From Tubiluchus corallicola (taxonomy: Eukaryota; Animalia; Priapulida), in contig JAQGDQ010000028.1 of the NCBI GenBank assembly GCA_030141605.1, forward strand, positions 186,001-250,000: DNA of 64,000 bases. The letters run 5' to 3'. Made by a program: the position numbers and the translations under genes. The notes beneath the pieces were generated by a model. That model was not told the DNA's origin. It saw only the letters and a program-made list of their open reading frames with translations, and did not search any database. This document shows positions 2,858 through 38,638 of the stretch, one piece after another. Every line of letters starts with the position of its first letter. The first letter of the stretch is position 1.

Positions 2858-5800
2858 AAAAGAAACCTGCAAAACCACGTCGAGCACCACATGGCAAACT
2901 TCAGGCACCAGAATTATCAGACACGACTAACCGAGTTGAACCTTCAAGCCCTAAAGAAAATGTTGAAACCAAAAAAGAGATAAAACCACCAAAACCACAT
3001 TATACTGTGAAGGAAAAGGTTGATCTTCAGATAGCTACTGATGTGCTCACACGTGATAACTGGAGGATAATTGAGAAAGGTGGGTGAGCATGCACATGAT
3101 CATTTTAGAAGTAGTTAATGTGCCTCGGTATATGAAACTGTTAAAGGAAAACTAGACCCAATCTGAAACTGTAGCTCAAAACAATCTACCCTATAACGTA
3201 TTGAAAAGGAACATAATATCTTTTTTTCAAGAATGACTTATATGAAAGAATTGTTCAACAGAAATGTAATTTCACCCGTGGAACTGAGTGGGATTGTTGC
3301 TAGTACATTCAGGTCCTGTTTACTTGTTTATTTTTTTGCGTTCACTTTTGTTACTGACTGCAGATTTAAATCTCAGAAATTGTTGAACATACTTCAAATT
3401 AAATTAGTTAGATTATGACTGTGATTGCCAGAGTGTTTATAAACTATTGCAATTTATTTTTAACTATTATTACCCATTGTGGGTAATGAGTTGGAGAAAG
3501 AAAGGAAACGCTGAAAAATGGTGGACTTGTTGGGATTTGAACGCGAGCCCTGGAATTAGTACTTCTATGCTCTGCCTGCTAAGCTGCTAGTTCAACATGA
3601 CAGAGCAGCCCAAGATTTCCTCCTTATCGCACACAATTGAACAGCGCCACCCGTACACATGACAATAGGAGGATACTTATGGTATCAACACTTTTCTCAA
3701 ATTAGCTGGCGACTAACGATACCATTAATTAGTTAGATTATGATTGTGAGTGTCAGAGTGTTTTTCAGTGTCTGCTTTCTTTCTCCAACTCATTACCCAC
3801 AATGGGTAATAATAGTTAAAAATAAGCTGTAATGGCTTATAAACATTCTGGCAAACACAGTCATAATCTACTTAATTAATGATATCCTTAGTTTCCAGCT
3901 AATTTGAGAAAAGTGTTGATACTTCAAATTAATCTGGCCATTTGGTTCCTACTCATTTTGCCATGGCTGAAGTTGGAATGTTGAAAATTAAAATTTTTAG
4001 CAAATTTGCAAATTTTTGCTTTGTTAACACTGCCTCCTTAGTGTGAGAGACCTCCTAGTAAGAGACATGGAAAATTGAAAATGTTAGTGGGTAAGCTAGT
4101 GACTTCAGGTAAGCTGCTGAAAGTCAAACGTGCTTTCATACAAAAAAGACTTTTTAGCATGACACTAATGCTGTAGAAATGAGGAATTGAACTGAGTCTA
4201 TAAAAATATGTTGCTTCAATGCCAGCTTCAATGAGTAGTCAGTTCTTAACTGATAATGTTTTGATGAAAAAATTTAATTAAAGTTTATCAAAATGTTGAA
4301 TTTTTGCAAACACTGTGAGTGCCTGTATAAATTGACTAGGCTATACAATGTATTTTACATATTTTTTAAGGAATTCCAATTATATACTAAATATAATGAA
4401 ATATTATAATCTCATTGACTTGAATATAATGGCCAACGAAGAAATTGTTTACGTTTCTAACACTTCTTATAGTTTCTCTACAAACTCAGCTCGCTGGGTG
4501 AAGTTTTACTTTTTTACCCCACTGTCACCGTGTGTAAGGTTTGTAATATAATCACTGTAATTGCACATTTTCCTCTTTTAAGTGAAAAAAGCAGTAAAAT
4601 TTAATTGTATAAAAATTACCTTTTCTATATTATTTTATAGACATCTTTGAGTTGCTGGAATCTAGTCCTCAACACAAAGAGTATAAACAGTCTATACAGG
4701 ATCTAAAGGCAGGTGTGCTGAGTATGCAAAAAGAGATAAGCACACTGAAACAACTGGTAAATATATACAGTTCTCTTGTACAATCTCTTAGTAATCATAG
4801 CAGTTTTGTCTAGAAGGAATTAACTTAATCACAAACAAACCTGGCAGCTTGAAGACATTTGTTGCTTCCTTGTCATGGGGGCTTTACTAGAGTTACAAGG
4901 GAATGCAGTTTTCTTATGCAGTCATGGCTAGATAACCTAGTTCTTCAGTAAGTGATCAATGGTAATCTTCTAAAATAAGATACTAAACTTGCAGAGATCT
5001 CTTAATATGTTCAGATGCATATACATCTTCCATCAATGATGTAAATACCTGAGAGCAATATGCCAGTTAAAATCCATTTGTTTACTGAGCAAATTCAGTG
5101 ATGCTTAACTATATTTGCTAAGCACATGCTATGACCACACAGGTACTTTGCTCATTTTCTTGCTTTTTTATATTTGGGTAGGCCTATATCTGAAAAGATT
5201 TAAAATTATTTGTTTTTGGCAAATAAGATGTGCATCTTGTTATCTAATAGTACAGGGTGTTCCTGAAAAACAGTGCAGTAGAAATTTACTAATGTGCCGA
5301 AATAATGCTGATCAAATTACAATGAAATGAAAAAAAATGTTCATCAATTCGAATCTTTTAATAACTGTCCAAATGAACCTGGACTTCTGCATTAAGATGT
5401 CGTGATAAGGTATCTAATTTCCGTTTTATATTTTTTAGAAAATTCTAATACATGCATATCAGTATACGTTACACACTGTACATTACGATCTTTATTGTAA
5501 ACTCTATTGCAGAAAGTGGTCTATTTGCAATGGTAACTGAAGAACTAAACCAGTCTAACCCTATTTGTGAAATGATGTTTAACACTTTTGTGAATGCTAA
5601 CATGCCATTCACACCTTTTAAATGCTATAGTTATTAGTGCCTTACTAAATGGTTTCACTAAATGACAGCCAAGAAGACAAACTTATTATATGAAGATTTG
5701 GTGCACAATCACTAAAATTGCTACAGTTCATTGTAGTGCACACTTGGCACAGAAAAGGAAATTTTTGTCTGTTATTTGATAATTTACGGTATGGAACCGT

Positions 5801-38638: not shown

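What the first reader, a model, noticed from the sequence alone, without database searches (positions are those of the whole stretch)
2858..38638. Kielin/Crossveinless-2-type BMP modulator carrying an in-frame EGF-Kunitz-VWC-tyrosinase cassette
Seen: 37 exons splice in one open frame with no stop, giving coiled-coil+CxC / EGF / Kunitz / short VWC / tyrosinase fold / 6-Cys module / ~24 VWC / VWD / C8 / TIL. Known: vertebrate KCP and BMPER/Cv-2 use VWC repeats plus a VWD-TIL tail to bind BMPs, and in KCP the coiled coil lies directly before the VWC array; neither has tyrosinase or Kunitz domains. Inference: the cassette sits inside the gene between two Kielin hallmarks, so this looks like a real insertion and not two adjacent genes. 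It may link growth-factor binding with extracellular matrix, adhesive or cuticle assembly, where tyrosinase, Kunitz and VWC domains are common in invertebrates. I do not recall a characterised protein with this architecture but could not search.
Basis: partly seen in the sequence, partly recalled or inferred. Interest (0 to 1): 0.88.

Follow-up and report, generated by a model that had tools for sequence, protein, structure and literature searches.

The report
Ancestral long Kielin with dead tyrosinase
This is an invertebrate copy of the gene for Kielin, a secreted protein that tunes BMP growth-factor signals in frogs and mammals; the tyrosinase-shaped block inside it is shared with sharks, salamanders, molluscs and horseshoe crabs rather than newly inserted, lacks three of the six copper-binding residues and so is likely not an enzyme, and likely descends from an intact block found in single-celled relatives of animals.

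Summary
Observation confirmed: 37 exons, all introns GT-AG, one frame of 2438 codons in the stated domain order; the 5' end is missing. It is one gene, a Kielin/KCP family member, but the cassette is not a new insertion. Database kielin/chordin-like models from molluscs, brachiopod, chelicerates, crinoid, amphioxus, tunicates, hagfish, sharks, coelacanth, sturgeon, teleosts and salamanders carry it. Two sterlet isoform models differ by exactly this block (892 aa), so textbook Kielin is likely the short form. None of 66 kielin tyrosinase domains keeps six copper histidines; this one keeps three: likely a pseudoenzyme. The block from Kunitz through tyrosinase, with all six histidines, sits in Salpingoeca choanoflagellate proteins. 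The window gene is a trimmed variant: one cassette, no Gly-Tyr-Asp repeats, no first VWC. One paper notes such proteins in passing (PMC11667028); the scan found the same twice on other genomes. No RNA covers the three key junctions; human KCP, frog Kielin and BMPER were not available for the tree; BMP binding is inferred.

The parts
2858..3079 (+). Exon 1 of the model: charged Lys/Pro/Glu-rich linker; an internal exon (acceptor, no start codon). True 5' end unknown
4641..6663 (+). Exons 2-3 (4641-4756, 6578-6663): likely coiled coil, CxC motif, start of EGF. The VWC that follows CxC in homologues is absent inside exon 3
   Evidence: 38-residue gap against Lingula P0002
9268..10131 (+). Exons 4-5 (9268-9467, 10001-10131): EGF, six-Cys Kunitz domain (Ser after the second Cys), start of the GxCC module
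11051..11271 (+). Exon 6: end of the GxCC module and a short VWC/FnI-like unit directly before the tyrosinase fold
   Evidence: X2 contig lies on 11049-11194
11831..12177 (+). Exon 7: tyrosinase-like fold, CuA half; ligand positions Tyr369, Asn377, His386; extra His372 and His375 (model numbering)
12466..13124 (+). Exon 8: tyrosinase-like fold, CuB half (Ser482, His486, His508) and the following region; the Gly-Tyr-Asp repeats of homologues are absent
13692..13818 (+). Exon 9: six-Cys module that closes the cassette; no Pfam family
15036..32508 (+). Exons 10-30: array of about 24 VWC (chordin-type) units
33438..35539 (+). Exons 31-34: VWD domain with a GDPH motif near its start
36189..36369 (+). 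Exon 35: C8 domain
   Evidence: 4.3e-22
37017..38638 (+). Exons 36-37 (37017-37145, 38568-38638): TIL domain and stop codon

Best explanation
The locus is one spliced gene of the Kielin/KCP family in its ancestral long form, and its product is likely a secreted, matrix-held protein whose VWC array likely binds BMP/TGF-beta ligands, while the EGF-Kunitz-short VWC-tyrosinase-6-Cys block likely works as a non-catalytic binding or anchoring part. Shown: the reading frame, domain order, family placement by the VWD tail, the presence of the block across bilaterians, and the loss of copper ligands. Inferred: secretion (the signal exon is not in the window), ligand binding (from frog and mouse KCP), self-cleavage at the GDPH motif and matrix retention through the VWD tail (recalled from Crossveinless-2 and mucins), loss of oxidase activity. 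Likely history: a Kunitz-tyrosinase block with an intact two-copper site, as in Salpingoeca membrane proteins, was joined to a VWC-VWD protein and duplicated in tandem (d1, d2) before protostomes and deuterostomes split; both copies lost ligands; lineages then kept both, d1-like only (this gene, crinoid and amphioxus models) or d2 only (vertebrates), and in vertebrate models the block became optional and is absent from textbook frog and mammal Kielin.
For: ORF and splice sites. Exon 7 search: top rows are kielin/chordin-like models; 6 of 26 scanned carry Tyrosinase+VWC+VWD. Shark-domain search: 32 of 329 candidates pass, all 32 list Tyrosinase and VWC, 24 of 32 also VWD. VWD-C8-TIL 49-58% identical to most kielin rows, 26-35% to FCGBP/zonadhesin/tectorin-like rows; kielin group SH-aLRT 100. 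Sterlet XP_058883310.1 (3293 aa) and XP_033882480.2 (2401 aa) share a 399-aa prefix and 2002-aa suffix and differ by one 892-aa block from the EGF to the 6-Cys module; 7 of 26 proteins checked lack the block, all sturgeon, gar or white shark. Copper ligands: 0 of 66 kielin domains have six His, 0 of 66 the first CuB His; 23 of 23 generic tyrosinases and 3 of 3 Salpingoeca-type rows have six; the six-His rule is stated in PMC3658974. A limpet d1 domain keeps the fold (pLDDT about 85-98 over residues 80-340; Foldseek E 1e-14 to bacterial tyrosinases). Sterlet block aligns to the unnamed P0103 over 905 columns at 32% and to two named Salpingoeca proteins at 38-40% over 481-551 columns. KCP function: PMC6750614, PMC6442991.
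Against: Human KCP, frog Kielin and BMPER sequences were not obtained, so the tree (quick method) does not test placement against them. Long and short isoforms are automated gene models. The d1 assignment of the window's domain has SH-aLRT 94-96, but an AU test does not reject grouping it with d2 (p 0.487); it leans on diagnostic residues. A Salpingoeca+kielin branch has support 97 in the 92-row tree and 0 in a 32-row tree. The d1 domains conserve extra histidines, which is not what plain decay predicts. Kielin-like VWC proteins are reported in argonaut eggcase and sea-star skeleton proteomes, which would fit a structural role. The window's protein lacks the first VWC and shows no LamG domain in the window.
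Confidence: 0.7

Rival explanations
1. The d1 tyrosinase fold is not empty: it has a rebuilt metal site (His372, His375, His386, His486, His508) that binds one or two metal ions or a phenolic ligand, and may tune the protein by metal, oxygen or redox state.
For: Among 27 d1 domains the first CuA His is Tyr in 27, a His sits three residues later in 22 and six later in 18, and the canonical H3, H5, H6 are kept in 19, 21 and 20; in 39 d2 domains H6 is mostly lost and the +6 position is Gln in 33. The fold is kept in a model.
Against: The first CuB His is absent in 66 of 66; 10 of 27 d1 domains keep two or fewer canonical His, amphioxus none. Side-chain geometry could not be read from the model.
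Confidence: 0.2
2. The protein is mainly a structural matrix, adhesive or skeletal glycoprotein that polymerises through VWD/VWC domains, and BMP control is a vertebrate or minor role.
For: Kielin/chordin-like VWC proteins were the most abundant class in argonaut eggcase matrix (10.1101/2021.07.10.451900) and are listed in a sea-star skeletal proteome (PMC5460417); the best solved-structure match of an array exon is collagen II VWC (E 2e-5).
Against: Those proteomic entries are VWC-only fragments named by similarity and were not shown to be this gene. The tail has one VWD and groups with KCP models, not with the multi-VWD FCGBP/zonadhesin rows. Frog Kcp augments BMP signalling (PMC6750614).
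Confidence: 0.2
3. One reading: a lineage-specific insertion of an active tyrosinase cassette into Kielin, coupling BMP binding to cross-linking of cuticle or glue.
For: The cassette does lie between the coiled coil/CxC and the VWC array; spiralian glues use tyrosinases (PMC11667028, abstract and section 10).
Against: Same cassette, same place, in protostomes and deuterostomes; three of six ligands missing.
Confidence: 0.04
4. Two neighbouring genes, a Kunitz-tyrosinase gene and a VWC-VWD gene, joined only on paper.
For: Some database models hold only the front part (Ptychodera 1515 aa, Owenia partial, Patella 632 aa, smelt 665-688 aa). An AATAAA lies in intron 8 at 13441.
Against: All junction phases fit; single homologous proteins align across the 8/9 and 9/10 junctions; there is no in-frame ATG between the upstream stop and exon 10; the smelt cluster also holds a 2576-aa full-length member; 24 of 32 homologues list the whole architecture.
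Confidence: 0.04

Closest known systems
Kielin / kielin-chordin-like protein (KCP; Xenopus Kielin, mouse and human KCP)
   Same: Many VWC units followed by one VWD (PMC6750614, passages; 18 cysteine-rich domains in KCP, PMC6442991, passage). The window's array and tail align to the short sterlet model over 1843 columns at 38%, and its tail is 53% identical to the 2323-aa gar model.
   Different: The window gene carries the EGF-Kunitz-tyrosinase-6-Cys block, which the passages seen do not list for frog or mammal KCP (their sequences were not compared here). It lacks the first VWC, and no LamG domain is in the window.
Long kielin/chordin-like gene models in RefSeq/UniRef (Lingula XP_013412584.1, Anneissia XP_033101456.1, Limulus XP_022244270.1, Hemiscyllium XP_060698749.1, Pleurodeles XP_069085493.1, sterlet XP_058883310.1)
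   Same: Same order of domains and the same degenerate copper site.
   Different: The window gene is shorter: one cassette (many invertebrate models have two), no Gly-Tyr/Phe-Asp repeat matches against 2-23 in the 12 cassette-bearing proteins counted, about 24 array VWCs.
Salpingoeca Kunitz-tyrosinase proteins (S. rosetta XP_004992948.1, S. urceolata EP00051_P017573, unnamed P0103)
   Same: Kunitz, GxCC module, Gly-Tyr-Asp repeats, short VWC and tyrosinase in the same order; a 6-Cys module follows in the two longer ones.
   Different: All six copper histidines are present; the two longer proteins go on into Kazal-like repeats and a likely membrane anchor (read from the sequence), with no VWC array or VWD found by Pfam.
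Type-3 copper proteins (Streptomyces and Bacillus tyrosinase, molluscan hemocyanin)
   Same: Sequence match E 2e-13 (exon 7) and 4e-8 (exon 8) to Streptomyces tyrosinase; fold match of a limpet homologue.
   Different: Three of six ligands replaced.
BMPER / Crossveinless-2
   Same: VWC units plus one VWD-TIL tail with a GDPH motif (architecture recalled; GDPH seen in the window).
   Different: Five VWC units and about 690 aa (recalled); no cassette. Not compared by sequence here.

Membership tests
Kielin/KCP | Long VWC array followed by a single C-terminal VWD-C8-TIL | tested here: met
Kielin/KCP | VWD tail groups with kielin/chordin-like proteins, apart from FCGBP/zonadhesin/tectorin-like domains | tested here: met
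   29-row kielin group, SH-aLRT 100, quick tree of 50 rows
Kielin/KCP | Groups with human KCP and frog Kielin rather than BMPER | not tested
   the VWD search listed only multi-VWD proteins among its best 120 of 1470; gar and short sturgeon/shark models served as cassette-less stand-ins
Kielin/KCP | Coiled coil ending in a CxC motif before the first VWC | tested here: met
   aligns to homologues up to the CxC; no coiled-coil predictor was run; first VWC is missing
Kielin/KCP | Signal peptide and N-terminal LamG domain (frog type) | tested here: inconclusive
   5' end lies outside the model; LamG profile finds nothing under E 1.9 in the window, while scoring 2 of 4 control N-termini
Kielin/KCP | Binds BMP7/TGF-beta and modulates signalling | not testable with these tools
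Active type-3 copper enzyme (tyrosinase/catechol oxidase/hemocyanin) | Tyrosinase fold | tested here: met
   Pfam, PDB sequences, model of limpet homologue P0007; the window's own two-exon domain was not folded
Active type-3 copper enzyme (tyrosinase/catechol oxidase/hemocyanin) | Three His for CuA (H1-n-H2-8-H3) and three for CuB (H1-3-H2-n-H3), per PMC3658974 | tested here: not met
   Tyr, Asn, His / Ser, His, His
Kunitz protease inhibitor | Six-Cys Kunitz pattern | tested here: met
Kunitz protease inhibitor | Inhibits a serine protease | not testable with these tools
   residue after the second Cys is Ser, not Lys/Arg, so trypsin-type inhibition is unlikely (inference from recalled BPTI numbering)
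BMPER/Crossveinless-2 | Five VWC units, about 690 aa (recalled) | tested here: not met
   about 24 array VWCs, 2438 codons or more

The most novel reading that the evidence does not exclude
Animal Kielin was built around a choanoflagellate-type copper enzyme block, and its first tyrosinase copy was not killed but rebuilt into a new five-histidine metal or phenol-binding site kept across protostomes and deuterostomes. Long Kielin would then be a metal-, oxygen- or quinone-responsive BMP modulator, switched by including or skipping one exon block, and the studied frog and mammal proteins would be the stripped form.
Probability: 0.18. Interest if true: 0.8.

Novelty: new member of a known kind. 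Interest (0 to 1): 0.4.

Why it matters
The gene itself is one more member of a family already modelled in public databases. What matters is the correction it points to: the KCP studied in kidney fibrosis and frog heart development is likely a shortened descendant, and sharks, sturgeons, salamanders and many invertebrates encode a long form with an unstudied block of about 900 residues. That gives direct tests: what the long form does to BMP signalling in axolotl, sturgeon or a mollusc, whether the block is skipped by tissue, and what a tyrosinase fold without its copper pair binds. The intact Salpingoeca block gives a natural positive control and a case of an enzyme domain turned into a signalling scaffold early in animal history. 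This window's trimmed version suggests that the Gly-Tyr-Asp repeats, the first VWC and one cassette are dispensable while EGF, Kunitz, short VWC, tyrosinase fold and 6-Cys module stay together.

Tried and rejected
No genome is held for the window, so the 5' exons and paralogues could not be sought. Run search: no RNA holder listed; 2 runs listed, X1 (0.41 of words) and X2 (RNA by guess). X2 contigs gave no depth over 11340-14007: no evidence either way on the tyrosinase exons. A second laying of reads returned nothing, so the three key junctions stay without RNA support. Word-index search with exon 8 among longer proteins: 0 of 1582 candidates passed, a miss later explained by better searches. 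VWD search for frog/mammal KCP was crowded out by FCGBP/zonadhesin. ESM Atlas: exon 8 gave only generic tyrosinase clusters; the 6-Cys region of P0007 gave no usable hit, TM under 0.5, and that region had pLDDT under 50 in my model. tblastn and a LamG profile found no N-terminal exon upstream of 2858. Missed Gly-Tyr-Asp exons: no match in six frames of 1-40000. The organism was not placed: the VWD tree puts it among protostome rows (96) outside the mollusc group, the tyrosinase tree beside molluscs (88). The careful tree did not finish; both are quick trees. No named cnidarian or sponge protein appeared, but only 30 look-ups were named, so absence is not shown. PMC6003135 uses KCP for an unrelated Kunitz shell protein; PMC10244343 is not relevant. 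Rows dropped: one partial domain (Batillaria) before the 92-row count; two rows first labelled generic (P0017, P0039) were counted with d1 and d2 after the tree placed them there.

Full report
Observation. I rebuilt the gene from the sequence and tested it in a script. Thirty-seven exons from 2858 to 38638 join through 36 of 36 GT-AG introns into 7319 nt with one open frame of 2438 codons and a terminal stop; the other frames have 89 and 214 stops. Pfam on exon frames gives the stated order: EGF, Kunitz, short VWC, tyrosinase in two exons, a 6-Cys exon without a family, VWC array, VWD, C8, TIL; the EGF, short VWC and TIL hits are under their curated cut-offs because the domains are split or short. 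The array has 22 pattern matches and two irregular units seen by eye. Exon 1 is internal, so the start and signal peptide are missing; no genome is held and no LamG exon is detectable in the window.

One gene or two. Contigs of run X2 (RNA by guess, roughly 87-97% alike on the exons) join exon 1 to exon 2 at GT..AG and exon 15 to exon 16, and lie on exon 6, but none is shown on exons 7-9. The case for one gene therefore rests on homologues. Single proteins align across every cassette junction tested, including the last one into the array (crinoid score 197, horseshoe crab 186). No in-frame ATG precedes exon 10.

What it is. A search with exon 7 against 1.84 billion representatives gave 1822 hits; the best are long proteins named kielin/chordin-like in Lingula, Argonauta, Anneissia, Branchiostoma, Limulus and the shark Hemiscyllium, with front-part models in Ptychodera, Batillaria, Patella and Owenia. 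Six of 26 scanned carry Tyrosinase+VWC+VWD. A search with the shark domain among 1706-5429-aa proteins passed 32 of 329 candidates; all 32 list tyrosinase and VWC and 24 list VWD; they add rays, chimaera, coelacanth, sturgeon, two teleosts, a newt, hagfish, tunicates, scorpion, spider, mantis shrimp and more molluscs. In a quick tree of 50 VWD-C8-TIL rows the window falls in the 29-row kielin group (SH-aLRT 100), among protostome rows (96). Human KCP, frog Kielin and BMPER are not in that tree, because the search meant to fetch them listed only multi-VWD proteins.

Insertion or ancestral part. The block is in the same place on both sides of the protostome-deuterostome split, so it is ancestral. 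Many invertebrate models have it twice; the two copies form separate groups, d1 (27 rows, 95) and d2 (39 rows, 99), with vertebrates in d2. Two sterlet isoform models on a contig of the same length share a 399-aa prefix and a 2002-aa suffix and differ by one 892-aa block running from the EGF to the end of the 6-Cys module. Seven of 26 proteins checked lack the block: five sturgeon records of 2401 aa, gar (2323 aa) and a partial white-shark model; 4 of 4 salamander records have it. Frog Kcp is described as LamG, VWC copies and one VWD (PMC6750614, passages; its alignment figure S21 is an image and was not seen) and KCP as 18 cysteine-rich domains (PMC6442991, passage). Textbook Kielin thus matches the short form; this step is inferred, since those sequences were not compared. 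In the window the downstream skip point matches the exon 9/10 boundary but the upstream one lies inside exon 3, so the same skip is not available and the block is likely constitutive here.

The tyrosinase fold. Type-3 copper proteins use three His per copper (PMC3658974, passages). The window has Tyr369, Asn377, His386 and Ser482, His486, His508 at those columns; the Asn and Ser replacements are also visible against hemocyanin chains. Of 92 aligned domains (one partial dropped), 0 of 66 kielin domains have six His and 0 of 66 the first CuB His, while 23 of 23 generic hits and 3 of 3 Salpingoeca-type rows have all six. A model of the limpet d1 homologue P0007 is confident over the domain and matches bacterial tyrosinases at E 1e-14; the window's own domain was not folded. 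So the fold is kept and the two-copper site is lost: most likely a pseudoenzyme. Against plain decay, d1 has an invariant Tyr (27 of 27) and extra His at +3 (22 of 27) and +6 (18 of 27), both present in the window; a rebuilt metal site remains possible. The d1 placement of the window is moderate: support 94-96, AU test against d2 p 0.487.

Origin of the block. Three hits with six His are Salpingoeca rosetta, S. urceolata and an unnamed protein. They hold Kunitz, GxCC module, Gly-Tyr-Asp repeats, short VWC and tyrosinase in kielin order; the sterlet block aligns to the unnamed one over 905 columns at 32% (E 2e-124), 6-Cys module included. Among the 150 listed hits, 20 have the short VWC or the repeats, and only these three match both strict copper motifs. 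Tree support for joining them to kielin is 97 in one tree and 0 in another, so homology rests on domain order and alignment. Inheritance from a pre-animal ancestor is the simplest reading; transfer is not excluded, and non-bilaterian animals were not seen among 30 named look-ups.

What is special here. One cassette only; no Gly-Tyr/Phe-Asp matches in the model or in six frames of 1-40000, against 2-23 in the 12 cassette-bearing proteins counted and 0 in the 2 short forms; first VWC deleted inside exon 3.

How it likely works. Shown: architecture, family, ligand loss. Inferred: a secreted protein whose VWC array binds BMP and TGF-beta ligands as vertebrate KCP does, whose VWD tail cleaves at GDPH and holds it in matrix (recalled), and whose cassette is a non-catalytic binding or anchoring unit; the Kunitz domain has Ser after its second Cys and is unlikely to block trypsin-type proteases. 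I put this at 0.7, a rebuilt metal site at 0.2 (it would amend, not replace, the rest), a mainly structural role at 0.2 (argonaut eggcase and sea-star skeleton proteomes list kielin-like VWC fragments; one passage each), two genes at 0.04 and the active new insertion at 0.04.

Novelty. The architecture is in RefSeq/UniRef. PMC11667028 (section 10 read whole; supplements searched) mentions tyrosinase sequences over 3000 aa with a kielin/chordin-like domain in one sentence and lists nine such entries in its table. Ten searches of the open-access library found no paper that describes the cassette, its lost ligands, its optional inclusion or the Salpingoeca relatives; subscription journals are mostly not covered, and the original Kielin and KCP papers were seen only as references. 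After I had logged my reading, the scan's notes showed two earlier reports with the same conclusion on an octopod and a ray; I checked the tandem cassettes and histidine loss in those groups myself but not their exon counts. They are not independent support. Verdict: real, correctly read, a new member of a known but unstudied long form of Kielin; interest 0.4.

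Noticed in passing
window 44308-45297 (-): Intronless 329-codon frame for a CDK4/6-like kinase (Pfam Pkinase 2.9e-67; subfamily judged by eye from the helix-C motif, recalled), in a genome whose other genes here are intron-rich; possibly a retrocopy.
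   Followed up: partly
window about 46270-60390 (+): Exons of a purple acid phosphatase gene (Pfam N-terminal 4.6e-14 at 47144-47413, C-terminal 3.6e-9 at 60094-60387), head to head with the kinase gene.
   Followed up: partly
window 19841-19969: A 63-bp exact tandem duplication copies the end of exon 17 with its donor site into the intron.
   Followed up: no
window 47550-48313: 59-bp minisatellite, 12.9 copies, 98% matches, inside the phosphatase gene region.
   Followed up: no
window about 2700-3900, 5900-6230 and 14380-14680: High contig depth in the DNA run (hundreds to thousands against 3-15 elsewhere) marks interspersed repeats in the introns.
   Followed up: no
proteins P0103, P0144, P0078: Salpingoeca-type proteins with an intact six-His tyrosinase, Kunitz domain and Gly-Tyr-Asp repeats; PMC3658974 found no type-3 copper protein in the choanoflagellate Monosiga. 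A tyrosinase next to Tyr-rich repeats might cross-link its own protein; untested.
   Followed up: partly
proteins P0337 and P0341: Sterlet isoform models differ by exactly the cassette; gar and a partial white-shark model lack it at the same point.
   Followed up: yes
protein P0181: Mantis-shrimp model has both cassettes but a VWD tail only 32% identical and on a very long branch; it may be a fused model.
   Followed up: no
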